From: Neodothiora populina
Taxonomy: Eukaryota
DNA: 64,000 nt
Assembly (NCBI RefSeq): GCF_041146345.1
Contig: NW_027191414.1
Coordinates: 1,240,001-1,304,000 of the forward strand
Direction: 5' to 3'
The position numbers were made by a program, and so were the translations under genes. Shown piece by piece: positions 19,087 through 49,400 of the stretch (position 1 is its first letter; every line of letters begins with the position of its first letter). A model generated the notes under the pieces. The model did not search any database. It had not been told where the DNA came from and was given only the letters and a program-made list of their open reading frames with translations.

Positions 19087-20577
19087 ATGCGTACTTCCAA
19101 CAACATCCTCGCAGCCGCTGCGTTGGCGGGCTTGGCTGCTGCCTCTCCAGCCCCTCAGCAGCTCGACTTCAATGCCATTGCGGCCGCTCCTACTCTTGCT
19201 TCGGGCCCATCAGCCAATGGTGTTGTCATCCAGACAGCCACCTTCATCAGCACCGTCTCGGTTGCCACTACCGCTACTGCCAGCATCACTGGCTCCGCGA
19301 CTGCCGCTGCCGCTACCGGCACTGGTCTAGCCAAGCGTTCCCTCCAGGAACGTAATCTCTATTGCAACAACAACAACATTTGGTGTACTTGGTTCGGATG
19401 GGGCTGTTGCCCCGTCCCTAGCTCCACCCCGGCTAAGACCACCAGCGTTTCCAGCGCTGCCAGTAAGACCAGCTCCAGCTCCTCCAGCATTGCTACCTCC
19501 TCTGCAGCCGCGGGAACCACTGGCTACACGCCTTACTACCCTGCTCTTGCCAGTGTCACAGCCTACACCACCGGTACCACCACCATCTCTTCTACATCCT
19601 CCTGCCCAACTACCCCAGAGGATGGTACTTACTGTGGTTTCCTCAACCCTCTCGACCCCTGTGGTCCCCAGCCTGATGGATACGGCCCTGTTCCTACTCC
19701 TGATACGGTCTCTGCCTTCCAGGCATACGCTCCTTTCCACTCCATGGCATCTGCTGCCCCTACCACCATCTCCGCTGCGTCCACTGCCGCTGTCTCTGGT
19801 ATTGTCACTGTCTACAACCAGACGTTCAAGGACCTGAACGCCGCATCCAGTGCACAGTCTTACCTTGGCCTCTTCACTCTCCAAACCTACGATGCCGCAC
19901 AGTGTGCTGCTTACTGCGACAGCACCGCTCTTTGCACAGCCTTCAACATCTTCATTGAGCGTGACCCGTCGGTCGCGCCTTCTACCCCTGACAACACGGC
20001 TCCCACTGTTTGGGGTAACAACTGCCCCAACCCTGCCTCCATGACCTCTTACAAGTGTACCCTTTGGGGATCAAACCTTGACGCTTCTTCTGCCACCAAC
20101 CAGGGTCAATGGCGCGAGCAGTTCCAGATTGTCATCACTGGCTCTAACGGTTATGATAAGACCAACGTCACCATTCCTGCCACCCCCACTGGCAGCAACA
20201 GCAACGGATCTGGCTGGAGCAAGGGTTCCAGCTGCGGCGGCAAGGCCATCAATGCTCCTCAGTACTGGATGGGCAGCAAGTTCTTCCCTGGTCCTTTCAA
20301 CGCTCAAGTCTGCGGCGACTACGCTTTCAAGCAAAACTCGATCAACAAGGCTCAGGCTGTATCCATGGGTCGTAACTTCTACACCCCTTGCAACATGGTC
20401 AACGCCTACTACCTCCACAAGAACGGCAAGCCTCACGGTACTTACTGTGCTCTTTACGACACTGATGTCGCCCTCAGCTGGGCCACCTACAATGGCGGTT
20501 TCTCTGGCAGTGACAGATTTGACTGCAAGCAGTCTTACAAGTTCACCCTTCAGAACGTCGACTCCGGAAAATGCTAA
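19087..20577 (+). CDS. Secreted Cys-rich protein with Ser/Thr-rich linker and PAN/apple-like modules
   Basis: Signal peptide MRTSNNILAAAALAGLAAA; dibasic KR site; YDAAQCAAYCDSTALCTAFNIFIERDP motif; intronless with strong C-ending codon bias. Confidence 0.8.
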   Translation: MRTSNNILAAAALAGLAAASPAPQQLDFNAIAAAPTLASGPSANGVVIQTATFISTVSVATTATASITGSATAAAATGTGLAKRSLQERNLYCNNNNIWCTWFGWGCCPVPSSTPAKTTSVSSAASKTSSSSSSIATSSAAAGTTGYTPYYPALASVTAYTTGTTTISSTSSCPTTPEDGTYCGFLNPLDPCGPQPDGYGPVPTPDTVSAFQAYAPFHSMASAAPTTISAASTAAVSGIVTVYNQTFKDLNAASSAQSYLGLFTLQTYDAAQCAAYCDSTALCTAFNIFIERDPSVAPSTPDNTAPTVWGNNCPNPASMTSYKCTLWGSNLDASSATNQGQWREQFQIVITGSNGYDKTNVTIPATPTGSNSNGSGWSKGSSCGGKAINAPQYWMGSKFFPGPFNAQVCGDYAFKQNSINKAQAVSMGRNFYTPCNMVNAYYLHKNGKPHGTYCALYDTDVALSWATYNGGFSGSDRFDCKQSYKFTLQNVDSGKC

Positions 20578-21700: not shown

Positions 21701-22282
21701 CTAAGCGTACTCAAAAGCAGGCAGACCGGTGGATGGTGCAACTCTCCATTGGAATCCCAAACAGTGGTGGGAATTGTCGGTAGTCACGGCGGCAGCGTAT
21801 ACTTTGTATCCATTCTTTACACCTTCAACAGGGCAAGCAAGCCATTCTTGACCTTCAAACTGTAGGCGCAAACCCGCGTTGACAAGTGCGAAGCCAGAAG
21901 TAAGAGAGTGCCTGCCCTTACTGGCAGAGTGAGCAACAGTGAATCGGAGAGCGCCGGTACGGTCAACGTAGACCTCCTGACCGCCAGGGGCCATAACGTC
22001 CAGGGCAAGCTTGTCAACGCCGTTCTTGAAGATAGTGGTATTAGTCTTGCCTAGGCAAGTTGGGAGGGGGCAGTAGGTGGAGGTGCCATAGTTGTTGACA
22101 TAGAAGTATGTGCCGTTTGCATTGATAGTGCCATATTGGATAGGAGAGCCGGAACGAATTGTGATACCAGAAAATGTCTCGTTACCAAGGGTATATCCTA
22201 GAGCGGAAGGGTCCACAGGTGCAGGGGCTGCAAGAGCAGCGGGAAGGACGAGAGCCAAAGCGGAAATAATGCTGGTCATCAT
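21701..22282 (-). CDS. Small secreted cell-wall protein (PhiA/IgE-binding-protein-like)
   Basis: Signal peptide; IRSGSPIQYGTINANG, TYCP, PGGQEVYVD.TGALRFT.AHSA, WLACP motifs. Confidence 0.8.
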   Translation of the reverse strand: MMTSIISALALVLPAALAAPAPVDPSALGYTLGNETFSGITIRSGSPIQYGTINANGTYFYVNNYGTSTYCPLPTCLGKTNTTIFKNGVDKLALDVMAPGGQEVYVDRTGALRFTVAHSASKGRHSLTSGFALVNAGLRLQFEGQEWLACPVEGVKNGYKVYAAAVTTDNSHHCLGFQWRVAPSTGLPAFEYA

Positions 22283-23945: not shown

Positions 23946-26843
23946 CTAAATGCCTCTTTCGGCAAAAATGCGATTCAGGGACTTCTCAAACGTTGCAACA
24001 TTAACGCCCTCATCTAGCATTGTAAAGTGGTCACCAGCGATACGGTGGAAGGTCAACTCATCTGTGAAAACATCCCACTCATGTAGCCAGCCATCCCATG
24101 TCTCATCGGAGATCTTCCACGCTCTGACTGGGGGAACCCAAAAGACCTCGTACTTGGAAACTTTGCCAGAAGGCTCGTAGTCTTTACAGATCCTGCGCGC
24201 AATATTGTTGACGCGGTTCCAATCCTCCATCTTCTCCGCGGTAAGTCCCATGGTTTCGAGGTTGGCGCCTTTGAAGTCTGCAACAATAGCATCGACAACC
24301 TCATCCTCAGGCACTCCTGCATATCTCTCTGTCACCGCCTCGATCTGATCACGAGGGATGACTCTATGATAGGCAAGCATCTCGACCGTGAAAGCTCTCA
24401 GATCTGACTTGGTCAAGATCTTACTGATCCATGGCGGGTTATCGAGGCCACCTACTAGGCCAACTTCGTCCCCGGCAGCTTCAAAACGCTTCGCCAGTTC
24501 GAATGCGGTAATACCACCGAAGCAGAGGCCAAGTAAGATATACGGACCCTTCGGCTGGATATCACGGATGGCCTGTTCGTATATGTCAAGCATGTCTTCC
24601 ATGCTCTCAAACACCCCTTCGGCTCGCTCAAGTCCTTTGGCTCGTAGAGCGTACACTGGACGGTCTGGTAAGTACTTGAGGAGCGGAAGCCAAATCATGA
24701 ACTCGCCTCCGCCGGGTGGCAAAAGGAAGAGTGCCGGCTTCGAACCAGATTGAAGCGTGGCAATTGGCTGATAGATTCCGATCTTGCCAGTCTGCTCAAG
24801 TATAGCTGCCTCCAAGCCTTCGATCGTCCTCGGCTGCAGTATCAAGCTCATAGGGATGGGCGTTTTTGTCATGTTCATTTCCACCTCGATCATACGCTTC
24901 ATGCGTAGATAGGCGATGCTATTCATGCCTGTCTGCATGATCGGAACATTCGCACCAAGCTCCTCCAGGGGCACATCCGTCTCTCGCGAGAGGAATCGTG
25001 CGATCGCAAGTTGAAGTTGCGATGCAAGTGGCTTTAGACCTTCCGCTAGGGGACTTGCCTCCTGGACGCGGTACTGATCAAAGTGGCCTTCGGTATAGAA
25101 CTTCTTCAATTTCTGGCGAGAAAGCTTGCCTATCGTCGATTTTGGCATCTCAGACTTTGGAAGAGGGATAACGGCGACTGGCATTGCGGAAGCGAACATC
25201 AATACTGCCTTGGAGACTTCGCCGATCAGGGTTCGAAGTGACTCTTCATCCGATCGAGACTCGTCAATCGGATTGAAGAGCACCACAACACCCTCAGAGT
25301 TTGACTTCTTGTCCCAGACGGAGAACGTGGCTGTCCAGGTTGGGTTAAGTCCTGGAATCTTTCTGCTCTCGATTGCCTCTTCTAGTTCGAAAGAGCTATA
25401 ATTGTTCCCGTTGATGATCAGAATCTCCTTCGAGCGACCGACTATCTCGAGATGGTTGCCTTCGTCCAGGCGGCCGAGATCTCCGGTATCGAACCAACCG
25501 TCAGCAGTCATGCAACTGTCCGTTGCTTCTTTATTGTTGTAATATCTCTTGAAGACGATGTCGCCTTGAAGTTGGATCCTTCCATCTGAGCCGTGTGGGA
25601 CTGGCTGGAGCCCATCATCAACCACTCGTAAGTCGATGCCAATTGGCAGGCTGTGGCCGACGGATGCGAATAAGTTTCGATGCTCGAGATCCCATTCAGG
25701 TGTTCTCAAATTATAGAAACACGCAGAGCAAGTCTCTGACAAACCATATGCTGCTTTGATAGGATTGCGTCTAGCGCCGTGATCCCGCAATATCTGGTTT
25801 GCGTGATCCATGGTAGACACACGATTGGCCTCGCCACCAACCATGACGACTTTAAGATGGCTAAAGTCATAGCCCTTTCCACGCCGATCCTCGGCCTGCC
25901 AGGATCTGCTTGCGGCAGCAAGGAAGGAGTTGGGAGAAAAAGTATAGCCAATCTTGTACCTGCTGATAATTTCATAGTAGCGCCATGGCTCCTGGACGAA
26001 ATCTCCAGCAGGTACAGATATCTGACTCGCACCAACGTTCATGGCGTTCAGGTGCAACTCGCAGAAATTTGCCGAATGATCGAATGAGATCCACGACATG
26101 AACTTGACGTTTTGGTCTAGGAAATGCATTTTCTTCTTCGCTTGAGCGGAACAGAGCAACTGCCGGTGAGTGAATTCGACAGCCTTCGAATGGCCTGTCG
26201 ATCCACTTGTGAAAAGTAGGACAGCGAGTTGGTCAGGATCATCCAAGTCATTGAGAGAATCTTTTCTGACATGGTGATTCTGTTCCTGCTGTGCATCGAT
26301 GGTCTCGATCGTGTGGACGTGTTCTTGAGGAAATTTCTCGAATTGGGCAGCATTCTTCTCGGAAGTGATGAAGGTAGGAGAGCCGAAGAGTGTTGCAAGG
26401 TTCTCCATTTGACCAGCCAGAGTCTTTGCATCATTAGACTGCCACGGTATCAGTCACTGTTCATCACATCTTCGACAACTCGACCTACCAATGGGCTCAA
26501 GATAGCAGGAACGCTGCCCGCAGCGATCACGCTCCACGTCCAAAGCACATTGTCCCTATGATTCTCGAAATACACCACAACGATCTTGCCTGGTTCGGCA
26601 ATTTCAGCAGCCTTGAGTTTTCCAGCATTGAACTTTGAGGTATCAGCATCCCAACGCTACATGAAATCTTCTCCAGGATTCACTTGCAGTGGCTCGAGAA
26701 AGAAGTTCCGGGTAGGACAGAGTCGTCTCAGGACCATCGAGTCCGTCATCGAGAAAGACCTGGCCTTTCGAGGGATACTCTAATGCTGCCCTTTGCAAGA
26801 GCTGTAGGAGCGTAGCTGGACTTTCGAATGCTTTGAAACCCAT
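23946..26843 (-). CDS. NRPS-like A-T-TE enzyme (about 930 aa; atromentin/aspulvinone/phenguignardic-acid synthetase architecture) with Cys-type TE
   Basis: A domain: FTSGSTGHSK, FDHSA, GGEAN, YGLSET, GWFDTGDLG, GRSKE, PKSTIGK. T domain: GMNSI. TE: PGGGE, GLCFGG, LDNPP, GDHFTML. No C domain. Introns 26633-26687 (GC-AG) and 26439-26488. Confidence 0.93.
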
Positions 26844-29471
26844 AATGACTATGTCTAGCAATCACACAAGGGTAAGGAAAGAACAATGAATCTTTTGGTC
26901 TTTATAGAGAGTCCTTTGCTCACTTTACTAGTCCAACGGAACACGACAGAGGCAAACTATGTTGAGACAGGTAGCTTTCTGAAATAGATAAGCTACTCGA
27001 CCATAGTTGACACCATCCCCAGGATCTCATCACAATGCACACATCCTACATTATAGGACCCTAGACGAAACGAATCAAAGACGTTCGTGTCAGAGATAAA
27101 CCCGAATGGGCCTCCCGAGCATATCCCTGAACGCACGACCTAGAGCGAGACTTAACCTTGCCTCTCATTGGCTTCTTGCTAAGCCTATGTGGGTAAAGGA
27201 CTAAAACTGCCCGCAATGTCCCTGACTTGAGCGGTTGTTCCTGTCGTGGACCCACTTCAATTGACAGCAGTCCACATGCACCATCATCGTGTCTTATCTT
27301 TTGTTTATGAATTGCCATTTCACGTTGCCCGTATCCCTCATTTGGAAGCTTATTGTGGCCATGTACCTCGATCTTCCCGGCTCAATGGGGATCTGCTTAT
27401 CTCGAGAGAGTGTGCTTCGAGGCTGCCAATTGGGTGTGATGGGGGGCCAAATGACGTTAATGATTAATGTCCTTGATCGACAGTCTGGAGGGAGTTCCCT
27501 TGTGATCTCTTGGATAAGTGGGTCCAAAGGAGTTGACTCGGGGGAAGTGGAGTTGCTACCGCCCGCCGTCGCGCCATTATACAGAAAATGTCAATTAGCG
27601 CTTTTGCTTCAATATATTGTAGCTACAAGGGATATGCAAGCACGGTGAACTAAAGCGTACCTTAACGGATTTTGACGTTGATCAGAGCTCAAGCTTCACT
27701 CGGGCCGGGCCGGCGTCACCAATCACCCACCCTGCTACCCCCCACCACTCCTCATGCGTCTTGCTTGTTGAAACCTCCAGCAGTGCTTTGTATCTCTAGG
27801 TACTTTGACACGGGTCATTGTCGTACTCTGCGACAGATCTACAAAATATAGCCATGGAACATCTCTCGGTCTTCGAGACCACATGACGAGGGCTCTTCTC
27901 TGGCCTCTCTGTCAGGACACAAAAGCAAGAAGCCTGCCGATCAGTAGAAAAACAAGTTCTTGGCCGATCGACGTGAGCTGGTGCGAAATCTTATTCAGGT
28001 TCGGTCGGCCTCCTCATCCCAGCGACGTGGTAGCGGAACTATAATGCTGTTGAAGGTGCGCCAAACCAACGATCCTCATCCGTACACAACATTTTGGGCA
28101 AAGTCAGGGCACCGCAATAAATGCGTTTTTGTATCCAAAGTACCGAATCACGTTCAAAGAATCCTTGGTTTGTTGAGATCTGCGCGCGCCCGGCATCCGC
28201 CAGGTTCCCCAGTGGCAGGAAATCGGTCTATTTACTATCGTCAAGGCAGAGGCAGATGATGCAACGTTCCTCAATCTGTTGTCTGGACTGAATCAACGAT
28301 GGCGATTTGCACATCGACGAATTGAGAGTGATTTTGAGACGGCCCCGTCGTTCGAAGACGTGTGTCAGCCTGGAACCGGGCATGTGATTGATTGCGTTTC
28401 ACCACAAGCAGAAAAACACTTCTGTGTCTGGAGGTGCCGGCCAAACGTCCGCTTGCTGCACCCGAGCGTGCGTGCAGGGGTATGCATGTTTCCTGAATTT
28501 CATAAGTGCGCAGCTGCTGCAGGCAGCCGCTTGTTCGGATATATCTTGCAGCTGGAAGCAGCCGATAGTCTGGCGTCTGTGCTGTTCAAGGTGAATATAT
28601 TCTTTGATTATACTGGGGTACCAGACCGTGACTGGGTATTCTAGAATTGGTATTTGCAGCGTAGCGCCCAAAAATTAGCTAGTTCCGATTTTGTTGTTTC
28701 TTTGTAGGCTAAGGTACTGTATATTGTGGACCTGTTTACCGACCAGCATATATAAATCCGAGTCAGTGCTACCGAAAGTTGCCTGACATAGCTATTTAGC
28801 AAACTCTAAAACCATGGAGGATAGAAGGAATCACATCGGGGATTGATTGACATGGGAGGCTGTCGTGGCCCAAGACGGAGACGGATGGGTGTGAAGGCAG
28901 ATCTACGGCTCTTGCTATCAAATTGTGCTTTGATCACGTTAGCCCAATTGTGTTGCGTGATGTTACTTTCCTCTGCATCAATCGCTGATCTGTCTGTCCG
29001 TTTCACTCTGCTTGGTCTGATATGATCAAAACGCGAGTCAAACCTCAACAAATGCAGTGTCTTCCATTTCAGTGAATTCGAACATTGCTCGGAGACTTAA
29101 CGGGTTGGCTCCACTCATGACGGACCCACCGGAACCAGATAGGATGACATTAGTGGGTTCAACGAGAGAGCCACAGTATCGGGATAGATTGGCCAGCAGA
29201 GACTATCAGTGTCGAATCGAAAACACCCTTGGGGAGTCAACCGTATCAACAGCTGCCGTAAGTAGGAGCCGTGGATGCCATATAGTCCCTTCGGACCCCA
29301 GGAGCAGGCGTGGGAGCAGTGCATGCTGGTTCATGACTTTCTTCCTTTACGATATTGATATCTCGAGTTCTCTACGCTATTCAAGACTGTATTGGATTCT
29401 GTATTCTTGACAGATTCGTTAGAGCCTCTCCAAGCCCAACTCTGTCGTTTCGTTCGTCCGACTCATATAAG

Positions 29472-30616
29472 ATGGCTCAGAAGCCTCTAGAGATCTTGGT
29501 TGTCGGCAGTGGGTAAGTTGATGGTTGATGCTACCAGGCTGCGATTCGGGTACTAATGGAAACCAGTGCTGTGGGGTCAATATTTGGTGCTCGAGCCCAG
29601 GGTGCTAGATCCCGGGTCACTGCAGTCTGCAGGAGCAACTATGATGTAGCCGCATCCAGTGGCATTGCAATAAGATCAATCCTCTGGGGCAACAGCATCT
29701 TTAACCCGAATCGGGTGGTGAAAAGCCCATCTGACGTTTCACACGTCGAGTTCGACTATGTCGTCCTCGCAACCAAGCTTGGCAAGCAGTCCAACCGGAC
29801 ATTGGTCGACAGTATTCGTCCTGTGATCAGACCCAAGACGTGCTTGGTGTCAGTGCAGAACGGAATTGATGCGGAGATTGCTTTGCGTCAGGCGTTCAGG
29901 AATCCAGTATTTTCCTCGACTTGCTATATCAGTTGTTCGCAGAAGCAGCCTGGTATCGTTGAACATGTTTCGAGCATCAGACCACACGCTTTCTACATGG
30001 GCATCAATCGTCCCGGTACTCTGTCGAGTGGAGAGAAAGAGCTTGCCTCTTTCGTCAGCTTAGATTCTGCCTTCACCAAGGTGGACGATGCTCATGTAGA
30101 ACGTTGGAGGAAGATGATCTTCAACACCGCATGGAGCCTGTCCACTTCCTTGATGGACTGCAACACTCATGAAGTGCTACGGGATGACTCTGGACTTAGA
30201 CTCGTCTCTGGTCTTGCTCAAGAAGCCTACCGTGTGGGCCGTATGATGGGGATCAATCTTCCGACTGATATTCCAAAATATACTGTGGAGTCAGCAGGCA
30301 AGGCGCCTGCCCTTGTACCATCAATGCTGCAGGACATCCGTGCCGGCAAGCCTATTGAGGTCGAAGCTCTGTGCGGTAAGTGACTTTCAGTGATGGTGCA
30401 CAAGCAGCAATGCTGACAATGTCTCTAGGTGGCATACTTCGAATGGCCAAAGAGAAAGGCATCGACACACCAATCTTGGAATCAATTTACGGATTCCTAT
30501 CGAGGCTCAATGATGATCTCGAGTCTCGCAACAAGGAGCCTATGAGGATTCCTGTCATCCGCCCTGCTTTCAACATTCCTGCTATCGGTTTGAGTTCAAT
30601 TCCTGCCCTTCTCTAG
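29472..30616 (+). CDS. Ketopantoate reductase (PanE/ApbA) family 2-keto-acid reductase, 3 exons
   Basis: ILVVGSGAVG, VCRSNY, FDYVVLATK, QNGI, RWRKMIFN, SMLQD, PIEVEAL. Introns 29513-29566 and 30376-30428. Confidence 0.92.
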
Positions 30617-32238: not shown

Positions 32239-34266
32239 TCAACTGATAGCTGCCTGGTCCTCCTCAACCTCGAACACTGTCGCCTGGCGGACGCCACAAC
32301 GTTCACCAACATTGTTGAGCTGTCGATCTATCCACCTCTTCTGCTCCGTCGATATCTCATCCGAGGTCCTGGCTACACGAAGCGGCCAATGAAGCAGGTA
32401 GCCAACTACCAGATCTACCGTGTGATTCATCTCTTCGTCGCTAGAGTTCAGGTGCTCCCCATTCCGCTTTCCCCAACGGAAATGCAATGGTACGCTAGAG
32501 CATATTTCATCTGTAGCCCGCTGCTGAATATAGGTAGCATGGCGATATTCCTCCTTCTGAGAGTACCCGACTGGATACATCCACATGATCCCTGTGGTCA
32601 TGATCTTAGCAGCCAGTATCCGGCATGAATGTATCTTGTTCAGTGCACTGGCGACGTAGACGTCTCTGTAGTCGTATACGGGTCCCACCCATGCAGTTGC
32701 TGTGTCAATATCCTCCGGCAGGTCGGCGATATAGCCTATTGTGCGAGGTCTAAATTCATCTGGTAGTTTCGTATCAGCCATGGCCTTTTCTACCTGGCGT
32801 GCTCTGCCGACCAAGGCCTGCATGTCTGAAAGAGCTTCAGTATCGGGCGCATGTCGCATTATCTCCTTCTGTATTTGCAACAAGGTGGGAAGCTCTACGG
32901 CATGATGCATGAGATCATGGACAGGATCACGATAATCGTATGTGCCGAGATGTGTATCACTGAGCCACCCTCCTTGTTCCGGAAAATCTTCTGGAGCCGT
33001 CCCTGAGCGCAAACAATTGATGAACTGCGCCGATCGTCAGCTCCGTCTCAACAGACTTTCTGCTCTTCTAATATCGTGCCACGTACCATTTCTGTTCTGA
33101 CTTGGCGGAATAAAACCAGCCCCAGGGGATCATGGAACTGAGACGAACCGCGCATTTTCAGTATTGCCGCAGCTCCATCAATGTGACTCGACCATGCCCT
33201 CATTGATCCATCCGAGGCATTTATAGTCTAGATATCTAATGTCAGTTCTATACTCACAGAGATCCACTCCATGCAGCTGGTAAGTGCTACCAGAGCGCCC
33301 GAAGTCGAACTCACCTCGTACCAAGATAAGACCAATGCGGCAAGGAGGGTCTCATCCTTCTGTGCAAATGTAGTATCTAGAAGCGCCGTAGACATTGTCT
33401 TTATTGCCTTGCCATAGGCAAGGGCGGCCTGATGCTGTAGTATCCTCTTGCTTGAAAGCATTGAAAGTGCACTCAAGGCCACAGCATGAAGAGACACTCG
33501 CAAAGGTGACCCTTCGGAAGATGCCTGGTACAATGGAGCCAACGCATGCAAGATATTGTGTCCATCATCATAACCGACGCCATACATTGTATCAAAGTTC
33601 TTAAAGCATATGTTCACAGCTTGCTATGGTTGGTCAGTGAACAGTTAGGCATGATGCTTGAGGGAATTCGTGAACCTCTTGTATTGACAGCCAAGGCGGC
33701 GGTCTAATAGATTCAGATGAGGAATACACCCTCAGCTGGCCAAATCGCGACTTCAGTTCCCGAGAAACATCATCGGAGGTGAAGGACTGCCTCCTGCGAA
33801 CGAGTGCTGTTGATGTCCCACTGCTTTCTTCATCACATTCTGCTGATTTTGGTAACCTTTAAAGTGTCAACTTCTCGATACGAGACTCGCACAACATACC
33901 ACCACTTGAAGTCATAGTTGACATAAGAAAAAGAAGGCCACTGCATACCGTGCATTAAAAGCCTTTGACTGTGGCCTCTGCTTCTTAGGGAGCTGTTGCT
34001 TTCGCTTCACAGCCTCTGTTTGGTTTCTGAAGATTACGTCCGAATAACCTGGACAGACTCGCGATGTTTTCACACACTGGTAGCAAGAAGGCTTGCCTTC
34101 GTCACACTTATAATGGTCAGCAAAGAGCACTACTCCGTAAACATGCATATAGTCACCTTTATCTTCCTGGTTTTACAGGTTTGACAAGCTATGTAAGGTA
34201 GGTTAGTCAAGAGACCGACGCCGTAGACTAGGTCGCACCTTTGCTTGGAGCCCCAGTCCGTCCCAT
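32239..34266 (-). CDS. Zn2Cys6 transcription factor, multi-exon
   Basis: MGRTGAPSK-ACQTCKTRKIK-CDEGKPSCYQCVKTSRVCPGY; middle region YGKAI...DETLLAALVL; C-terminal EICSSVP...GYLLHWPL. Confidence 0.88.
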
Positions 34267-40150: not shown

Positions 40151-42775
40151 TCACATGGCAGGCCAGCTACCAACGCCCATATTCATCGTCCAGCCAATAT
40201 AGCTATTCTGAGCCAGATCGTCGACGAAGCCTTGCCAGTTCATCCACGAGTCGTCCATCTGGCCCATGCTGAGGTCGTAGTCCATCGGTAACGTCGAGGC
40301 AGGCTCCCCGTCGGTCAAGGAATCGGTTGGTATCGAGGCCGGCGTCGTCGACACCATGGATGCGAACAGGTCGAGGTTGGTGGACATGGCCGTTGTGGTG
40401 GACGTCATTGGTAGTTCTTGCTGCTGCTGCTGCTGCTGCTGCTGCTGTGTGTTAGGCTGGTAAGCTTGTGCTTGGCTCGTGGCAGCTTGCATTTGGGCCT
40501 GGTGCATGGCTCTCCGACGCCGAGCCATGCGCATTAGTTTTCGGATGGGTTTCCATAGTCCTCCATTGGCTCCCTCGGCCACTTTTACTGCAACGTACTC
40601 GAAGTTGGATTCTGCTGTTCGCCATGCACGTTCTACGAGCTCTGTATTTTGGAGTGACGAGGAGCACAGCTCTGCGAGAACGACGGCTAGGGAGTGCCAA
40701 TTGACGTATGACTCGAACATCCAGTGCCAGCAGTGCGTCGTCTCATTGCTGAATGTTCTCTTGAGCTCAAGGGTTTCCGTTGCACTCAGGAGTATATTCA
40801 CTGCTCCTGGTGGTGGTGGTGTCATGGCTGGATGACGCTGCAAGGGCCGCACAACGGACAGCCATAAACCAGAAATGATGATCTTGCCGAGGCAGAATGC
40901 GGCATATTGGATGTCTTGAGTCAAGTCGCATTTGGACAAGAATTGTTGTGTCAAGTAGGCATCGAGCCGCCGGACAGCTTCTTGTCGTACTTCCCAAGAC
41001 TGTTGTATAGGTCGCGGAGGAGCGTCATTGTCTCGAACCTGCTACGCATTAGCTGGAGTTGTACGGCGCGAGTATGATGGAACAACGCGTGCGGAATGCG
41101 GTCACAGTCAACACAGTGCAATGAGTACATCTCTTATACCGATGATCTGGCGCCGAAGACAAGCTTGATGGAGGTAACTCACTGGCACAAAGTTCAGTTC
41201 GCGAAGCAGATACTGAGCTTCACTAGCTATCACTGTGAAGGTGGTGTCGGTAAACTCGTGTTTTCTCGATGGCGGCTCGGTGGTACCAGGGCCGAAATCG
41301 GCATCATTGATGTCCTCCAGGCATTTGGTGTTGTAGCCGTTGCTGGGTATGCACGAGTCGGATCCTCTGTCGGAGGCAGCTTGGTAGTCCAAAGCCAGCA
41401 GAGAAAACCAAGCTCGACGGTAAATCTGCCCCTGATAGAACGTGAGAGTCGCATAAGACTCCTCTCGATGCAGCTGTAATGCTATGGCTATGCGAGAGGC
41501 CAAGCCCATCAACGTCCATGACTGCGGTCCGTTGTTGTGGGTTCTGATCGCGCTCTACATGCCCGCGTGTCAGTTCCATGGATTCTTCTTGCCACTTACA
41601 TCCACTTGTACGTACCACGTAAAGAACCAAACCTTGTAGATATACGATGCTGTGATTGTTAGCCATGCCGATGATCTGGAAATTGCGCTCCATAATCGCA
41701 CGCCATTGGTTGCTAATGACTTCTTTCTGCTCTCCAAAGTACGCCAGGCATTCTTCTTCATTACAAGAACATACTGTTGTGTAGAATGCGGCAGCTCTCA
41801 AGAACCGGAACGTGCTACTCCGAACCGGGAATCCGAGGTAGGGGTCCCCATTTCCTGCAGATCGTTCAAACGTCGGCAAATGGAATATCTTGAACACTGG
41901 ATCTACATGGCGTTTGTATATATTCAGATACTGGCGGATGTTTTGACTCGACAAGAATTCTGATGGGTCTTCTTTGTAGTCATCGGACTGGAGAGGGAGA
42001 TCAATCGCTGCGCTGTCTTCCTGCGAGGCGAGATCAGGAGGACTGTTATCAATTTCATCCTCGTCATCTCGGCTTTCGAGTACATGGCGAAGCCCATTCA
42101 GCTACGTTAAGATGTTAGCCGAAACAAAGGCAAAGTCTTGAAACATGCTTCACGCAGAGCTGACAATTACATCGCGATGATTTACATAAGTCTCTCTCAC
42201 GAAGCATTGTGGATTTGCATATCACGAGAATGATCAGGTCAAAAGCAGCCCATCGGACCGGCATATTGCCCATCGCGCATAGGAATAAGAGTGGATACAA
42301 CACACCACAAAAAAAGAAACGCCCTTACCTCATTGCTCAATTGGGTCCAGACTGTGGATCCTAAGAGGCGACTAATATCAGTGTCGCCACTGCTGCTGTG
42401 ACTTTTCGAGTTGCTGTTGCCGGGCGACGAAGTAGAAGTGGCAGGTGAGTCGGGCTTATCATGAAGGACGAGTTTCGCAATATCGTGTGTAGCAGATGAA
42501 TTGTTAGTACTGCTGAGTGACGAGACCAATTCCTCGAGTTTCTTCACGCGCAATCGCAGTTCAGTGTTGGCCTCTTTCCTGCCACCGCGACGGCCGCGCG
42601 GGAGTCGTGGTCGAACCACCGGAGTACACTCTTTGCCTGCCTTGCTGCAGGCGCCACACGGCTGTCGTTTGTCGCATCGGATCTTGCGCTTGCTGCATAG
42701 TTCGCAGGACAGAAGCGCTACGCCGGGTGGGTTTGCATCTTTCTTTTTCTCCGCACTATTATATGGATCCTCCAT
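40151..42775 (-). CDS. Zn2Cys6 transcription factor with fungal-specific TF domain and polyQ tail
   Basis: SCELCSKRKIRCDKRQPCGACSKAGKEC; HVDPVFKIFHLP; GLASRIAIALQLH..RRAWF; WHSLAVVLAELC. Confidence 0.9.
40421..40447 (-). repeat. (CAG)9 repeat encoding polyglutamine
   Basis: (ctg)9 on the + strand within the TF C-terminal region. Confidence 0.9.
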
Positions 42776-43230
42776 TTGTGACACGCGCGTATAGTATGCG
42801 CGTAGATGATGATGGTCTGTTGGTTACGATGCGTCACACCAAACTAATCCTTAGGACGCAATAGCCCTCTTGTAAAGCGAGACGCCCTTCGGAGAAACAC
42901 TAAGATGCTGATCCGAGGAGTTGCGACATGGATCCATACAGCAAGAATACACAGCAAGTACACTTAGATACCTAAGGCAACAACGTGCAAGGGCAAGAGC
43001 CTTTCTTCGACTGGAAAGTCAATCCGCTTCTACCGTAGCAGAAGCATACTACTAGTAATTCGGCTGAGAGCCAGACATTACCAGCAGAAAATTACGGGTA
43101 TGGCCTCAGCTTCGATCGAGCGCGGATGGTGACGTCTACTATAGGTTCACGCTAACCGTTTTTCGAAGCTTCGATCGTGCCTGCCACGGCCGTGCTCATT
43201 CACATGGCAGTCAAGCAGTAAGCCATTGAT

Positions 43231-43253
43231 ACGACGACGACGACGACGACGAC
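43231..43253. repeat. (ACG)n microsatellite
   Basis: acgacgacgacgacgacgacgac downstream of FDC1. Confidence 0.9.
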
Positions 43254-43372
43254 AACAGCGTTATACTTTCTTCTGTGTGGAAAACACGTCATTCATGTGA
43301 TATATCCATTCTCTATATGGGATGTCTATATGAAGCAAAACATTCGTGTAACAGGTATAAGACCTAGCGTGC

Positions 43373-45044
43373 TCATGCCTTGAAGCCCATTGCCTGCCAC
43401 TCGGCGTTGACCTTGGCCTTGACCTCCTCAGGATACGAGTTCTTAAAGTCCGCAGCCACCCAGTTTGCACCTGTAGTGTACTCGACAGGCATCAGTGCAT
43501 CGGACACGACCTTACCACCCTTCACTGGGCTGTGCGCTCCGTGACCGTTGTAGGGAATGAGAGGGAAAGCTCTGACATCAGGGAAGAAGGTTTCGTCGTC
43601 GTTAGGGCGGCAACGAGTGGTGAAAGCCCAGATGACATCCTTGAAGTCAAACACATCGATGTCATCACCGACCAACACAAGTCTGTGAATGGTGTATCCG
43701 ACCTTGTGGTTGAAGACGAGATCACCGATCTTCTTGGAGAAGTCCTTCGAGTTGGTCTTCATGGCACGCAGCTTGGCAGTGTCAATCTTGAGTGCCACCC
43801 AGGTGACCTGAGATTCGAAGTTTGACATGGCTTCGACGACAGGCAGATCATTATCTTGACAGAGCTGGCGGATCTCAGCTGCTGCAAGGGGTCCAATCAT
43901 GGTGTGCTATGGTTCTGTTAGTGCAAAGGTTTTCACAAGATCGCAATCAGGAACTTACCGTCTCATCGGTCAATCTACCACATGCTGACACGGGCATGAT
44001 GGGGTCATCACGGTGAGTGATAGCGTTGACGGTGTACTTGGGGCATTGGTGAGCGTCACCAGGGAAAACGTAACCGTGCATCTCTCCGAAAGGACCTTCG
44101 GGCGCAGTCTCGGTGACGGACAGAGTACCCTCGAAGACAATCTCACTGTTGGCAGGAACCTTCAAGTTGTTGGTCTCACACTTGACAAGATCGAGCGCAG
44201 TGCCAGTCATGGCTCCAATGTACTCGGACTCGGTCACGCCGTCCGGAAGAGGCATCGAAGACGCCATGATGGCAGCAGGCGGCACTCCAAAGCAAAGCGC
44301 CCACGGCACATCCTTGCCCTCCTTCTTCCACATCTCCTTGACCTGCCAGATATGCTGAGGCTCGATTACGAGTCCAACCAGGTGGCGCTTGTCGTAGATC
44401 ATGGCGCGAGCAATCGACCAATTCGTCCACTTGCCATCCGGGGATTGCACAACGTGCATGCCATACGTCTGAATATATTTTCCGCCATCATCCTGGTGGA
44501 TCAAAGGGGTAGGAAGCTTAGTGAGATCGATGTCGTCTCCGAAGATCTTGTTCTCTTTGCAAGGTCCGCTTTCGACAAGGTTAGGTGGCAGCGGCGTCGA
44601 CTTCTTTGCAGACAGCATCTTGTCCAGGATTTCCTTCATGCCGGCCGTTGGGGGCAGTGCGAGGTGTCTAGCCAGACGACCGAACCGCGTAGCCTTGTCA
44701 AATCTCAGCGCAGCGGGTGCGCCAAGAATACGGAAAAGTCCATCCTGGTTGCCCTTGACGTTGTTGAACAAAGGAGCCTTGTCGTCCGTCTCGTATACTT
44801 TACGGATAATGGCCGCGACCTCGAGGTTAGGGTCCTTTTCGTCATTAATTTCGACCAAGTCGTTATCTTCTTTAAGCGCCTCGACGAAAGACCTGAAGTT
44901 CATATGAGGTAGGTCCTGTCCGCTAGACGAGCTGTGGTAGCTCTGGACCGCACGCTTCGGGGTGAATGTTGATGACATGATGTTACGTCTCGCCAATGCT
45001 GTGGTTCTTAGTGATGTGTTGAGTCTAGGCAGTATAGTCTGCAT
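43373..45044 (-). CDS. FDC1: Ferulic/cinnamic acid decarboxylase (UbiD family, prFMN-dependent), 2 exons
   Basis: [54 protein letters not shown]; one intron at about 43907-43959. Confidence 0.95.
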
Positions 45045-45625
45045 AATTTATATCCAATGTCCAATGTTCAGTAAGAAGGTGACTACTTGGACAATCACTA
45101 CAATAGAATAGATAGATAAACAACAAAATCAAAACAAAAAGCCGGGATCGCGCGACTATCTATATACTCGTACCTTCTACGAACCGATGATGATCAGTTA
45201 AACATAGACCCTGAGACACCATTGCACAAAAAAAGTCCATGTCATGCCATGTCAGAGTGCCCGAACTACCTTGATGTCCCTTGCACTACCACTCCACTCC
45301 ACCGCCAGCCCGCCCGCCTGCCCGCGAACCCCCAAGTCCCGAATACAACGATGAAAGACCTGCTAGACTACCCCTCGTATGTTCCTAGGTAAGGTACAGT
45401 AGTCTCCAGCACTTCCCACACGTACACGTATGCGCGCGCGCGGAAGTCCCGGATGAAGCGGTGCGGTAACGCAACATACTTACAAGATAGCAATAGTGCG
45501 GCAGCTCCAAGAAACGAACACTGCTTCTGTACGGAGACCAACCGTAAACCGCGTATCCGTTCTGGTCAGGAGAGATACTGTGATTACTACTATTGGAAAG
45601 AAGGCCATGATCTGCCACTAACATC

Positions 45626-45663
45626 TCTCGGCGCTTCGGGGTCTCGGCGTCTCGGCGTCTCGG
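45626..45663. promoter_or_regulatory. Array of five CGG triplets at 8-bp period in the FDC1-PAD1 divergent promoter (candidate Zn2Cys6 sites)
   Basis: CGG at 45629, 45637, 45645, 45653 and 45661; four of them within TCTCGG. Confidence 0.45.
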
Positions 45664-46187
45664 ATGGGGATCGTCTCCAGGGGCAAATACGCTACCTGAA
45701 TATTGCGTAGCGGAGATCAGACGACTCTCGCGCGGGGCCAATCTCCTATTTCCCTTACTGCGGATCGCGAGAGCGACGAAGTAGGAGAGGCCGCGGCCCC
45801 GAATGTCCTGCCTGTCATTAGTGTGTACGGAGATCTGGCATTGACCATGGCGAGTCGGGGAGGCGGCGGCGCATTGGTTTTGTCTTTTCTTTTTGCATTC
45901 TTGCGGCCGTTCAGTTCGTCATAGTGGTCTTGGGTTGTTGGAGTGTGTTTTGGTTAGGTGCTTGGGAGATGCAGGAGGACTGGGGAAGGGATATAATTAA
46001 TTGTGTTCTCGCCTTTTCTTTTAATTGTTTTTTTGTTACGCATGGTCTGGCATCTATATCTCTGTATCTACCCTCTTCCCTATAGCATTTTACAAAGATA
46101 ATCAACGAGGCACCGAAGGGATTGAAGCTTTTTCATATTCTTGAGATAGAGGCACTAGAGCATTGGAGAAGAAGACCACAAGGAATC

Positions 46188-47072
46188 ATGAGCTGTATGC
46201 TATCAACGAATTTCGTGTCGTCAGTCGCTCGATCGAGTACGACGGCGGCATCGAAAGGCGCTATTACTTCAACTGCTGCTCTTGCTGCCAAGACCACTCC
46301 GACGTTCTGTTGTCGTCGTCAGGAAACCCCGAGGACATATACCACACGGACTATTCGGCCCACGCTATCCTCATCATCTAAGCATATTGCGCAACTGCCC
46401 ACGAACACAAGGCGGCATATCAGCACCACTGCAGGTCTTCAAGGTCTCCAGGATGGCAACCAGTCTGGCATCTCAACTACTGTCAAAATGTCCCCACCGC
46501 GCCCCAAGCGGATAGTGGTCGGCGTGACGGGCGCGACAGGCACACTATTCGCGATTCGCATCCTGCAAGTTCTTAAGGCGCTGGGCATCGAGTCGCACCT
46601 GATCATGAGCAAATGGGCGCTCGCGACGATGAAGTACGAAACGTCAATGACCGAAGCCGAGGTGCGGAGCCTGGCGACAACGAATTACACGATGAAGGAC
46701 ATGTCGGCGCCGCCGTCGAGTGGCTCATTTCTGCATGATGGTATGATCATCGTGCCGTGCAGTATGAAGACTCTCGCCGCGGTTCGTATCGGCTTCTGCG
46801 ATGATTTGATCTCGCGCTCGGCGGATGTGTGTCTGAAGGAACGCAGACGCTTGGTTCTGGCTATCAGGGAGACGCCGTTGAGCGATATTCATCTGGAGAA
46901 TATGTTGTCTTTGCGCAAGGCCGGCGCGGTCATTTTCCCTCCTGTGCCGGCTTTCTACACGCGGCCGAAGACGATTGACGACATTATCAACCAGAGTGTG
47001 GGACGGATGCTGGATGCGTTGGATATCCATACCGAGGAGTTTGAGAGGTGGGATGGCTTCAAGAAGTTATAG
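46188..47072 (+). CDS. PAD1: Flavin prenyltransferase (UbiX family) with mitochondrial-presequence-like N-terminus
   Basis: RIVVGVTGATG, SSGSF, IVPCSMKTLAA, RETPL..IHLENM, PPVPAFY. Start at 46188 or 46197. Confidence 0.95.
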   Translation: MSCMLSTNFVSSVARSSTTAASKGAITSTAALAAKTTPTFCCRRQETPRTYTTRTIRPTLSSSSKHIAQLPTNTRRHISTTAGLQGLQDGNQSGISTTVKMSPPRPKRIVVGVTGATGTLFAIRILQVLKALGIESHLIMSKWALATMKYETSMTEAEVRSLATTNYTMKDMSAPPSSGSFLHDGMIIVPCSMKTLAAVRIGFCDDLISRSADVCLKERRRLVLAIRETPLSDIHLENMLSLRKAGAVIFPPVPAFYTRPKTIDDIINQSVGRMLDALDIHTEEFERWDGFKKL

Positions 47073-47243
47073 ATATGTAATTATTCAATGTACCTGTATG
47101 ATGCTTGTGCTGTGATTACGAAACTTCATTTGCTTGACCCTTTGCACATTTGGCAAGTGTCGCTTCGACTTCCTCCATGTTTTCGGCTTCTTTGCCTTGT
47201 GAATTAAAGCTAGTGTGATGATGCTAGACATGGAAGCAGTCAT

Positions 47244-49400
47244 CTAGAGGCCCCACTCCAGTTGGTCAAAAGTCGGCTCAAAAGCCATGCTGTTGTCGAA
47301 GAAATCGTTGCCTGAAAATGACATCAGTACCTAGTTCTCCTCAGTCTTCTAGAAGTCACCTACCCCAGTCAATGTTGCCAAAGTCGTCAAACAGATTATC
47401 GTACATCTCGGGCTGGCCAACGCCCAGATCGGCTTGTAGCGGCAAGATTGGTCCGTCGCCTTGTGGTACGGCAGTCACAAGCTGAGCACCCGCATTTGAC
47501 TGCTCAGCCATGGCTTCTCGACGCCGAGCGATAGAGTTCTGAAGAGCATTCGAAGCTTTTGAGTGTAGTGTCGACAGCCAAGGCTGATGATCTGCGTCGT
47601 TTGTGGAGTCCGAGCCCGGTCTCTCACTAGTGAGGACTTTGATGAAGCGTGATTGAATTTCATGCGCAGACTCTGCCTGAGGTAGGTCCTGATGCCCGAA
47701 AAGCTCGAGAAGCAGAGCGGAACTTATCCCGGCGTGGATCATTGACCACGACCGTAGTGGTACTGTAGACAAGGCTTGCAGATCCAGGAAAGCCTGCATC
47801 GTCCGAACGAAGCTGACTTTTGCTCTTATTGCGAGAGACATCTGGTCAGGGTGGTTTATGTTGGCTGCAGATATCTCTCGTTGCAGAAAGATTCGACAAA
47901 TAACCTGCTCGCTGTACGCAAAGTGAAGGTACAGAGCATACTGTTCGACACGCACACGACGGCTAGCCCGAGCCACGGGAATGCCCACATAGGTATCACG
48001 TCGTGCTCGCAGCCCATCGAGGAGTCCAAGGTAATGCGATGCTGTCTCAACCGTCGCTCTTACGGCATGTGGTAAAGCCAGATAAGCACGACAGATCTCG
48101 GTAAGCTCTGACATGCAACTCACGAAATCATGGTTCCCGGAGACCGCTGGTGTAGATAAGCCGGAAGTACTCGTCCCGAATGGCGATCTGTCAAAAGACA
48201 TCGAAAGCACGCAGTCTTGTGATAGAATAGCCGACCACAGGGCTCTTTTGTGTTCAGATAATCGTGATGGTTCCATCTCTGGTGAATGTGAATGAAGGCC
48301 GATACTCTGGGCAAGACGTATATTTGTGCCCAGCAGAGCCCAAGCAGCATCGGCTTGACCGTCGTTTTGTAATACATGCCCAAGTATCAGCAGAGCTTGT
48401 ATGGTATTGAAGTTTGGCCGCAGCAGGAAATTGGCCAATCTGGCACAATGGAACGATCTCCGCGCTACGTGGATGTCAATGGGGTGTATTCGAGCAAGAG
48501 ACATGTTGTGACAAACTGACCAAAATCCCTCGAAACTCGCATCCTGTCAGAATTGGAGAGGTCAGAGAATTGAGCTCCAGAAGCGAGGACTGCGAGCAGA
48601 AGACATGTCCGTGCCACGTCTGGACGTTCCTCCTCGCCAGTCGCAGGAGCAGCAGAGCTTTCGCGAGATGCAGTGAGCTCGAGATACGTGTCTATAAGCG
48701 CCTCAAGATCATTTTGATCAGATATCAGATGATGAATGGGATACACAACAGTCTGATAGTACTGCGCATAGCGCAAGACATCTGCATGCGTAGGGATCAG
48801 CCGATTCACTTGCTCAATCGCACTCTTGGCAGTGCCGTCTTTCATGAAGGGATATGACTTGAGTGTGTTCTGTAGACCAAGCGCAGGCCGTACGTCACGT
48901 TCCAGAGCAGACATGTTGGCAAATGGCGAACCGCTGACAAATGACGGAGTCGCGTTGACGCCGACGAAAGAGGGATCCTGAGGTTCGAGGGCTTCGGCAT
49001 CTTGGTCTGGCGATGCAGCATTCACCAAAGGGGATGTCGTTGCATTCCGTCCTGCATTGACATCTTGATTATCTGACTGCACGAAGCCTCCAGTGTTTGA
49101 AGCAATAGTATCCGACTTCTCGACGTGACTGCCATCCAGACTCAAAGACTGTCGATCACCATTGCGCCCAGCACTTGTACCTCCCACTCCCGAAGCCGAA
49201 TGACGATCTGCCGTTCTACGGCGAGTGGTAAGTCGTTCACTGGTATCATCAACCATACATATCTCCGGATGCCGTCGCTTGACGCAATTCGAGCACGGCA
49301 ACACGCCGTTGCACTTCACTTTTCGAGACGCGCATGGATAGCATGCTTTGCGTTTCCGGCGAGCTTCTAGGATCCGGTCCGCGTCTTCTTTGGATGGCAT
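47244..49400 (-). CDS. Zn2Cys6 transcription factor, positional equivalent of the Aspergillus niger sorbic-acid decarboxylase regulator SdrA
   Basis: ACYPCASRKVKCNGVLPCSNCVKRRHPEIC; ANFLLRP..IQALLILG..AAWALLG..IRLAQSIGLH; adjacent to PAD1. The last exon ends ...DQLEWGL*. Confidence 0.85.

What the first reader, a model, noticed from the sequence alone, without database searches (positions are those of the whole stretch)
23946..24760. NRPS-like A-T-TE enzyme whose thioesterase has a Cys nucleophile (Cys/Asp/His triad)
Seen: the TE nucleophile elbow reads GPYILLGLCFGG (Cys codon TGC at 24522-24524), where characterised fungal A-T-TE enzymes have G-x-S-x-G. The acid position reads LDNPP and the His GDHF; the usual HPGxGE reads PPGGGE. 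The gene is otherwise intact. Known: quinone synthetases (AtrA, TdiA) use Ser/Asn/His, whereas furanone/dioxolanone synthetases use Ser/Asp/His. Cys-nucleophile TEs in bacterial NRPSs (ObiF, SulM) release strained beta-lactone or beta-lactam rings. Inference: this may be a distinct fungal subclass with a thioester-bound intermediate and a different cyclisation chemistry. Caveat: TGC is one substitution from a Ser codon.
Basis: partly seen in the sequence, partly recalled or inferred. Interest (0 to 1): 0.8.

Follow-up and report, generated by a model that had tools for sequence, protein, structure and literature searches.

The report
Cysteine-thioesterase synthetase with reductase partner
This fungal enzyme belongs to a widespread, apparently unstudied branch of small assembly enzymes that has cysteine where its relatives have serine and sits beside a keto-acid reductase gene, so it probably joins hydroxy acids into esters instead of making the pigments and ring compounds of its known relatives.

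Summary
Cys739 (TGC, 24522-24524, minus strand) sits at the nucleophile elbow of an intact, spliced 930-aa A-T-TE gene, with Asp766 and His904. It is not a strain quirk: 49 of 56 TE hits have GxCxG, and Cys enzymes form one branch across four ascomycete classes. First, the branch has Ser at adenylation code position 1 (34 of 34; 0 of 45 outside), where keto-acid enzymes have Val or Ile. Second, a PanE/KivR-type 2-keto-acid reductase gene lies head-to-head with it (29472-30616), here and in all 7 of 13 related loci that hold enough upstream DNA. Best reading (inferred, 0.55): the reductase makes a 2-hydroxy acid, the enzyme activates it, and the Cys-TE forms ester bonds, giving oligoesters or polyol esters. 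Hormonemates (structure recalled) are a candidate product in this fungal family. The beta-lactone analogy fits poorly. PgnA's own residue could not be checked, and no product has been shown.

The parts
23946..26843 (-). A-T-TE NRPS-like synthetase gene, 930 aa; exons 26843-26688, 26632-26489, 26438-23946; intron 1 is GC-AG
   Evidence: spliced contigs; equals P0001
26073..26075 (-). Ser222, adenylation code position 1, where keto-acid enzymes have Val or Ile
   Evidence: aligns with Ile of StsA, Val of McyG; 34 of 34 in the branch, 0 of 45 outside; coordinate is the codon next to Ala223, 26070-26072
24801..25004 (-). thiolation domain; phosphopantetheine Ser607 at 24918-24920
23997..24734 (-). 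thioesterase domain (PF00975)
24522..24524 (-). Cys739, nucleophile position (TGC)
24441..24443 (-). Asp766, triad acid at position 1
24027..24029 (-). His904, triad base
26844..29471 (.). divergent intergenic region between synthetase and reductase; a shared promoter is inferred
   Evidence: gene ends; same head-to-head layout in related loci
29472..30616 (+). PanE/ApbA-family 2-keto-acid reductase gene, 345 aa (AAFC00_006039, P0323), introns 29513-29566 and 30376-30428; GxGxxG and the Asn, Lys, Ser, Glu motifs are present
32239..34172 (-). Zn2Cys6 transcription-factor gene next to the reductase; membership in the unit uncertain
   Evidence: Pfam, (Fungal_trans_2 below cut-off); no match in related loci

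Best explanation
A two-gene unit that makes esters of 2-hydroxy acids. Step 1 (inferred): the PanE/KivR-type reductase reduces a free 2-keto acid, most likely branched-chain (ketoisovalerate or keto-methylvalerate), to the 2-hydroxy acid. Step 2 (inferred): the A domain, with Ser at code position 1, adenylates the hydroxy acid and loads it on Ser607-phosphopantetheine. Step 3 (residues shown, chemistry inferred): the acyl group moves to Cys739 as a thioester, keeping its activation energy. Step 4 (inferred): His904 activates an alcohol, either the 2-OH of the next T-bound monomer (oligoester, as Vlm2 TE does by reverse transfer) or a polyol such as mannitol or erythritol, which releases the product. 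The expected product is a short oligo(2-hydroxy acid) ester, often on a polyol. In Dothioraceae the candidates are hormonemate-type compounds (about 0.3; structure recalled). In the branch linked to A-T-transferase genes the candidate is the 2-hydroxyisovaleryl group of brassicicolin/maculansin/heterocicolin-type mannitol esters. Shown: the residues, their conservation, the gene linkage and spliced transcripts in one sample. Not shown: substrate, stereochemistry, acceptor and product.
For: (1) One branch: 33 of 34 Cys rows in a 79-row tree, support 100 (FastTree). (2) Ser at code position 1 in 34 of 34 branch rows and 0 of 45 others, with further pocket changes (Y331, S334, S338, A339). Val there marks keto-acid enzymes (PMC10316625 passage). 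(3) A reductase lies head-to-head in 7 of 13 metagenome loci (5 distinct sequences); the other 6 hold at most 1039 bases upstream; no other window ORF truly matched any locus. These neighbours are 39-48% identical to the window reductase, whose own-genome paralogues are 25-33%. (4) 23 of 78 near reductase hits share the longest-contig length of a branch synthetase, against 0 of 40 distant PanE hits and 0 of 11 Ser-type synthetases. Consecutive accessions occur in Diplodia, Lasiodiplodia and Phyllosticta (pairs chosen by me), and adjacent locus tags in Ascochyta rabiei and Parastagonospora nodorum. (5) KivR, which supplies hydroxyisovalerate for beauvericin, is of this family; PanE binds the free carboxylate through a Ser that is conserved here (PMC3478992 passages). 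(6) A 43%-identical reductase, AFT12-1, is an AF-toxin cluster protein. (7) In L013 and L014 the pair adjoins a transferase-domain gene (A-T-transferase in L013) and an Atg22-like transporter; L014 also has a Ctr copper transporter and a ferric reductase. In Zasmidium cellare the Cys enzyme is XP_033672319 and a listed crmA homologue XP_033672322. The enzyme that attaches hydroxyisovalerate to mannitol is unassigned (PMC9381783 passages). (8) Hormonemates come from Dothiora, the same family as Neodothiora. (9) Phyllosticta has a separate Ser/Asp, Val-type A-T-TE (P0130) that can account for its dioxolanones.
Against: There are no biochemical data. Cys, Ser222 and the reductase share one origin, so their co-occurrence is essentially one event and not many independent tests. 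Exceptions: Fusarium phyllophilum P0289 is in the branch with Ser; Xylographa P0180 is Val-type with Cys outside the branch, and Podospora P0136 has Cys in an otherwise outside-type TE. Known fungal hydroxy-acid A domains have Gly, not Ser, at this position, and fungal A-domain specificity is poorly predictable (PMC9371744 passages). 55 of 78 near reductase hits had no matching contig length (24 of 47 on contigs of 7 kb or more). The Beauveria mimosiformis pair has tags 58 apart on two short contigs. The Alternaria atra crmA homologue is about 970 locus tags from its Cys enzyme. No ICS domain was detected upstream in L013. This genome has no close A-T-transferase (best 32%), and its two ICS loci are on other contigs. 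No acyltransferase was found among the window ORFs scanned. The hormonemate structure was not confirmed. AFT12-1's reaction is not established in anything I read.
Confidence: 0.55

Rival explanations
1. Keto-acid dimer synthetase with a tailoring or half-supplying reductase: the A domain still activates a 2-keto acid, the Cys-TE builds a furanone- or dioxolanone-type core, and the reductase reduces the product or supplies one hydroxy-acid partner.
For: The A domain is homologous to keto-acid A domains (StsA E 1e-46). All characterised fungal A-T-TE enzymes dimerise aromatic keto acids (PMC9047271 passage). Phyllosticta capitalensis carries a branch member and makes guignardic acid. One member is auto-named 'pnga'.
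Against: Code position 1 is Ser in 34 of 34 rows. Automatic names in the branch disagree (pnga, melA, microperfuranone synthase, tdiA). Phyllosticta has a separate Val-type enzyme. PgnA alone suffices for phenguignardic acid, so a linked reductase would be unexplained. No such dimer was known from P. nodorum in 2014.
Confidence: 0.2
2. Same 2-hydroxy-acid substrate, but the Cys-TE cyclises two or more units and releases a dilactone (1,4-dioxane-2,5-dione) or a larger cyclic oligoester without any polyol.
For: The substrate evidence is the same as for the best explanation. The TE fold matches the cyclo-oligomerising Vlm2 TE. No polyol-related gene is linked in this window.
Against: The candidate compounds known from carrier taxa are polyol esters (hormonemate structure recalled), and one sub-branch is linked to transferase-domain genes.
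Confidence: 0.14
3. Strained-ring release (beta-lactone or beta-lactam) as by the ObiF1 and SulM Cys thioesterases; this was the first reader's lead.
For: Cys nucleophile; both named enzymes have it.
Against: The acid is at position 1, not position 2 as in ObiF1. There is no C domain, and a 2-keto reductase gives an alpha-hydroxyl, not a beta-nucleophile. Cys TEs with other or unknown roles exist (AB3403).
Confidence: 0.05
4. The Cys is a strain-level substitution, a sequencing error or a mark of a dead enzyme.
For: TGC is one base from Ser codons. All 9 loci checked use TGC, so there is no synonymous variation to show. One branch member has Ser (P0289), and one sub-branch lacks the His.
Against: Cys is kept in proteins only 31-45% identical to this one. 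The codon is matched in two runs of one sample, and the gene is intact and spliced.
Confidence: 0.03

Closest known systems
Fungal non-reducing NRPS-like keto-acid dimerising enzymes (BtyA, atromentin synthetases; MelA, MicA, TdiA, PgnA, AcyN by literature)
   Same: A-T-TE layout without a C domain; 29-34% identity to BtyA, a Suillus atromentin synthetase and Phyllosticta P0130; His, and Asp as in BtyA
   Different: Cys nucleophile; Ser at code position 1; separate branch; linked 2-keto-acid reductase; no product known
KivR with cyclooligomer depsipeptide synthetases (beauvericin)
   Same: a PanE-family reductase clustered with a synthetase that uses a 2-hydroxy acid
   Different: those are multimodular NRPSs with C domains that also use amino acids (recalled), with Gly at code position 1; here there is one A-T-TE module
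Valinomycin Vlm2 TE and StsA keto-acid module
   Same: TE-driven ester oligomerisation is the proposed analogy; closest solved folds
   Different: they activate the keto acid and reduce it on the carrier with a fused KR; the Vlm2 TE uses Ser; bacterial
ObiF1 and SulM Cys thioesterases; AB3403
   Same: Cys nucleophile; AB3403 also has a position-1 Asp
   Different: bacterial terminal modules (ObiF1 and AB3403 are C-A-T-TE); ObiF1 acid at position 2; beta-lactone or beta-lactam products
CrmA pathways to fumicicolins, heterocicolins, brassicicolin A and maculansin A
   Same: mannitol esters bearing 2-hydroxyisovaleryl groups of unassigned origin; one sub-branch is linked to transferase-domain genes
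   Different: this genome has no close CrmA-like gene, and the link is absent in Alternaria atra
PHA synthase PhaC (recalled, not tested)
   Same: alpha/beta-hydrolase with a Cys-Asp-His site that forms esters between hydroxy acids
   Different: uses 3-hydroxyacyl-CoA, makes long polymer and has no A-T didomain

Membership tests
Keto-acid dimerising A-T-TE enzymes | A-T-TE architecture without C domain | tested here: met
Keto-acid dimerising A-T-TE enzymes | Val (or Ile) at A-domain code position 1 | tested here: not met
   Ser222
Keto-acid dimerising A-T-TE enzymes | Ser nucleophile with Asn or Asp and His | tested here: not met
   Cys739/Asp766/His904; BtyA and a Suillus atromentin synthetase have Ser
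Keto-acid dimerising A-T-TE enzymes | Condenses two aromatic 2-keto acids | not testable with these tools
   needs an assay
PgnA-type dioxolanone synthetases | Orthology to Aspergillus terreus PgnA and the same TE residue | tested here: inconclusive
   PgnA sequence not obtained; not among the named hits (120 of 159 listed); the alignment figure in the PMC10316625 supplement is a picture
ObiF1/SulM strained-ring Cys TEs | Cys nucleophile | tested here: met
ObiF1/SulM strained-ring Cys TEs | Acid at position 2 (stated for ObiF1) | tested here: not met
   Asp766 aligns with the position-1 Asp of AB3403, Pks13 and Skyxy
ObiF1/SulM strained-ring Cys TEs | Condensation domain in the module that builds the acylated substrate | tested here: not met
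   no C domain
PanE/KivR 2-keto-acid reductases (neighbour gene) | ApbA and ApbA_C domains, GxGxxG, Asn/Lys/Glu triad, carboxylate-binding Ser | tested here: met
   (motifs located by pattern, not by alignment to PanE)
PanE/KivR 2-keto-acid reductases (neighbour gene) | Reduces 2-ketoisovalerate; orthology to KivR | not tested
   KivR was not among the 120 of 160 hits listed; activity needs an assay
CrmA isocyanide clusters | Linked ICS-A-T-transferase gene | tested here: not met
   own genome; link seen only in another sub-branch

The most novel reading that the evidence does not exclude
This branch is an undescribed class of single-module fungal ester synthetases. With a dedicated reductase it polymerises 2-hydroxy acids into short defined oligoesters on a Cys thioesterase and hands them to polyols. 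It would explain the hormonemates and the hydroxyisovaleryl groups of brassicicolin/maculansin-type compounds, and give a minimal two-gene route to lactide-like oligoesters.
Probability: 0.35. Interest if true: 0.82.

Novelty: new variant of a known kind. Interest (0 to 1): 0.68.

Why it matters
The characterised fungal A-T-TE enzymes dimerise aromatic keto acids, and databases name members of this branch after them. If the reading holds, a branch found in many plant-associated fungi (Parastagonospora, Plenodomus, Phyllosticta, Diplodia, Cercospora, Cladosporium, lichen fungi) makes a different class of compound. It could then be recognised from three marks: Cys in the TE, Ser at code position 1 and a head-to-head reductase. 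It offers a testable enzyme for the unassigned hydroxyisovaleryl transfer to mannitol and a candidate route to hormonemates. It is also a compact system for asking what a Cys nucleophile does in a thioesterase beyond strained rings. A two-gene expression experiment decides it.

Tried and rejected
Sequencing error or strain change: rejected. PPGGGE as a class mark: rejected, it varies in the branch. PgnA sequence: not obtained by search or cluster look-up; Fig. S1 of PMC10316625 is not held as text. Hormonemate structure: the primary paper is not held, and four other papers name the compounds without structures. Supplementary file 1 of PMC9381783 (pictures) could not be searched and no cluster map was seen, so whether its 'alpha/beta-hydrolase' is this enzyme is open. 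PMC5974471 and PMC8878860 passages added nothing. No RNA holder was listed. Run X2 is labelled 'DNA?' yet gave spliced contigs; depths were not used to rank genes. The single-sequence TE model was poor (pLDDT 52) and was not used. The ESM Atlas returned generic thioesterase clusters only. ObiF1 and SulM TEs did not appear in the 50 rows shown, which excludes nothing. Codon check: TGC in 9 of 9, uninformative. ICS upstream of L013: not detected with two own-genome queries. Earlier scan findings were not available. Ten library searches listed no paper that describes this branch or its product; the library lacks most subscription journals.

Full report
Observation. The codon at 24522-24524 is TGC on the minus strand, in GPYILLGLCFGG. 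The gene spans 26843-23946 with two introns, and the joined exons equal the 930-aa protein P0001, which its source names AAFC00_006038 of Neodothiora populina. Domains are A, T and TE. The triad positions are Cys739, Asp766 and His904, placed as expected in the model, whose TE superposes on the NocB and Vlm2 TEs. Two runs of one sample show no other letter at the codon. X2 contigs skip the introns of this gene and of the neighbour at 29472-30616; X2 is labelled 'DNA?', so transcription is my reading of these joints. A search of the genome with the TE found no second close copy.

Conservation. Of 56 TE hits, 49 have GxCxG (the query included) and 7 have Ser. Three searches gave 278 alignable TEs: 157 Cys, 118 Ser and 3 other; these include some long multimodular proteins. 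I kept 143 proteins of 800-1100 aa with both motifs readable and thinned them to 79 rows. In the FastTree tree 33 of 34 Cys rows fall on one branch (support 100) with one Ser row, and one Cys row lies outside. The root is not inferred. Named members come from Dothideomycetes, lichen fungi (Cladonia, Trapelia), Sordariomycetes and Penicillium. Named Ser references are BtyA (Ser/Asp, Ile at code position 1) and a Suillus atromentin synthetase (Ser/Asn, Val). SNOG_03620, a branch member, was uncharacterised in a 2014 survey (PMC4205913 passages).

The A domain differs too. Ser222 aligns with Ile of the keto-acid domain StsA and Val of McyG. Val at this position indicates keto-acid activation (PMC10316625 passage). 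The branch has Ser in 34 of 34 rows and the rest in 0 of 45; Y331, S334, S338 and A339 also change. In the 143-protein set, 95 of 96 Cys enzymes have Ser and 46 of 47 Ser enzymes do not. This is shared ancestry, one event, with exceptions P0289, P0180 and P0136. Known fungal hydroxy-acid A domains have Gly there (PMC9371744 passage), so Ser says 'not the usual keto-acid pocket'; it does not prove a hydroxy acid.

A linked reductase. A PanE/ApbA gene lies head-to-head 2.6 kb upstream. It is the only window gene matched in related loci: 7 of 13, always divergent. The other six loci hold at most 1039 upstream bases, and the seven are five distinct sequences. Of 78 near reductase hits, 23 share the longest-contig length with a branch synthetase (23 of 47 on contigs of 7 kb or more). 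The controls gave 0 of 40 distant PanE hits and 0 of 11 Ser-type synthetases. Equal length is a proxy for the same contig, and misses are expected because lengths belong to cluster representatives. For pairs that I picked, accessions are consecutive in Diplodia, Lasiodiplodia and Phyllosticta, and tags are adjacent in Ascochyta rabiei and P. nodorum. KivR of this family makes hydroxyisovalerate for beauvericin, and PanE binds a free carboxylate (PMC3478992 passages); the motifs are present here. AFT12-1 of the AF-toxin cluster is 43% identical; its reaction is not given in what I read (PMC8102738 passages and section 8).

Wider context. In L013 and L014 the pair adjoins a transferase-domain gene and a transporter, and L014 has copper-uptake genes. 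In Zasmidium cellare the Cys enzyme is three accessions from a listed crmA homologue (30 of 31 Dothideomycete rows seen). Won et al. describe mannitol esters with 2-hydroxyisovaleryl groups and leave the attaching enzyme open (PMC9381783 passages). Against a general link: Alternaria atra's crmA homologue is about 970 tags away, no ICS was detected in L013, and this genome lacks a close A-T-transferase and has unlinked ICS genes. For Dothioraceae, hormonemates are reported from Dothiora. That they are polyol esters of acetylated 2-hydroxy-acid chains, first found in Hormonema dematioides, is recalled and was not confirmed. Neodothiora, Dothiora, Sydowia (Hormonema dematioides) and Delphinella share the family, and Delphinella has a close reductase.

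Mechanism. Most likely (0.55): the reductase makes a 2-hydroxy acid, A and T activate and carry it, Cys739 holds it as a thioester, and an alcohol attacks, either the next monomer's 2-OH or a polyol. Vlm2 TE oligomerises by reverse transfer (PMC10510592 section 2.4.3); the PHA synthase analogy is recalled. Rivals: keto-acid dimer with a tailoring reductase (0.2), cyclic dilactone (0.14), strained ring (0.05), neutral or dead (0.03). The strained-ring idea is weak because ObiF1 has its acid at position 2, whereas Asp766 matches position 1 as in AB3403, and a 2-keto reductase supplies no beta-nucleophile. Phyllosticta makes dioxolanones (PMC5566483 parts 1-2 of 3) and has a branch member, but it also has a separate Val-type Ser/Asp enzyme, P0130.

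Membership and novelty. The architecture matches the keto-acid dimerising A-T-TE enzymes, but two tested features (code position 1 and the nucleophile) are not met, so I do not file it with them. It is not an ObiF1-type TE. Ten searches of the open-access library listed no description of the branch. Of the papers listed I saw passages or sections of 15, as cited, and the rest only as listings. Subscription papers and picture supplements (PMC10316625 Fig. S1, PMC9381783 file 1) may bear on this. Verdict: real and conserved, a new variant of a known kind with a testable change of substrate; interest 0.68.

Noticed in passing
P0285, P0123, P0300, P0286, P0293, P0294, P0296: A sub-branch with a GRCxGG elbow (Cladosporium fusiforme among them) mostly lacks the triad His in the aligned position, yet P0294 shares a contig length with a reductase: a Cys TE without the usual base, or a shifted His.
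   Followed up: partly
P0180/P0443 (Xylographa), P0136 (Podospora fimiseda): Cys nucleophiles outside the branch (the Xylographa pair is Val-type; P0180 placed outside in the tree): probably separate Ser-to-Cys changes.
   Followed up: partly
window 26633-26687 (-): Intron 1 of the synthetase has a GC-AG boundary, seen in a spliced contig.
   Followed up: yes
window about 26840-27612 (+): One low-depth contig with a GT-AG joint on the + strand (about 26871-26931) in the divergent region: possibly a weak spliced transcript running away from the synthetase; one contig, 29 letters on the short side.
   Followed up: no
window 42239-49400: A UbiD-family decarboxylase (43373-45044), a flavoprotein (46188-47072) and Zn2Cys6 factors: looks like a Fdc1/Pad1 aromatic-acid decarboxylation cluster (cluster name recalled).
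   Followed up: no
window 19087-20577 (+) and 21701-22282 (-): Two ORFs with hydrophobic N-termini and no Pfam match just downstream of the synthetase; not matched in related loci.
   Followed up: no
G000:C2:1332304-1333210 and C14:23662-24295 (L034, L035): Two isocyanide-synthase (DIT1_PvcA) loci elsewhere in the genome, unlinked to this unit.
   Followed up: partly
L011:13885-15970 and L017:13885-15684: In these loci a carboxylesterase-family gene follows the synthetase directly; it could trim or transfer esters. No such gene was found in the window.
   Followed up: no
P0009, P0197, P0308, P0330: Branch members and their reductase are filed under Quercus suber; probably fungal DNA in that assembly.
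   Followed up: no
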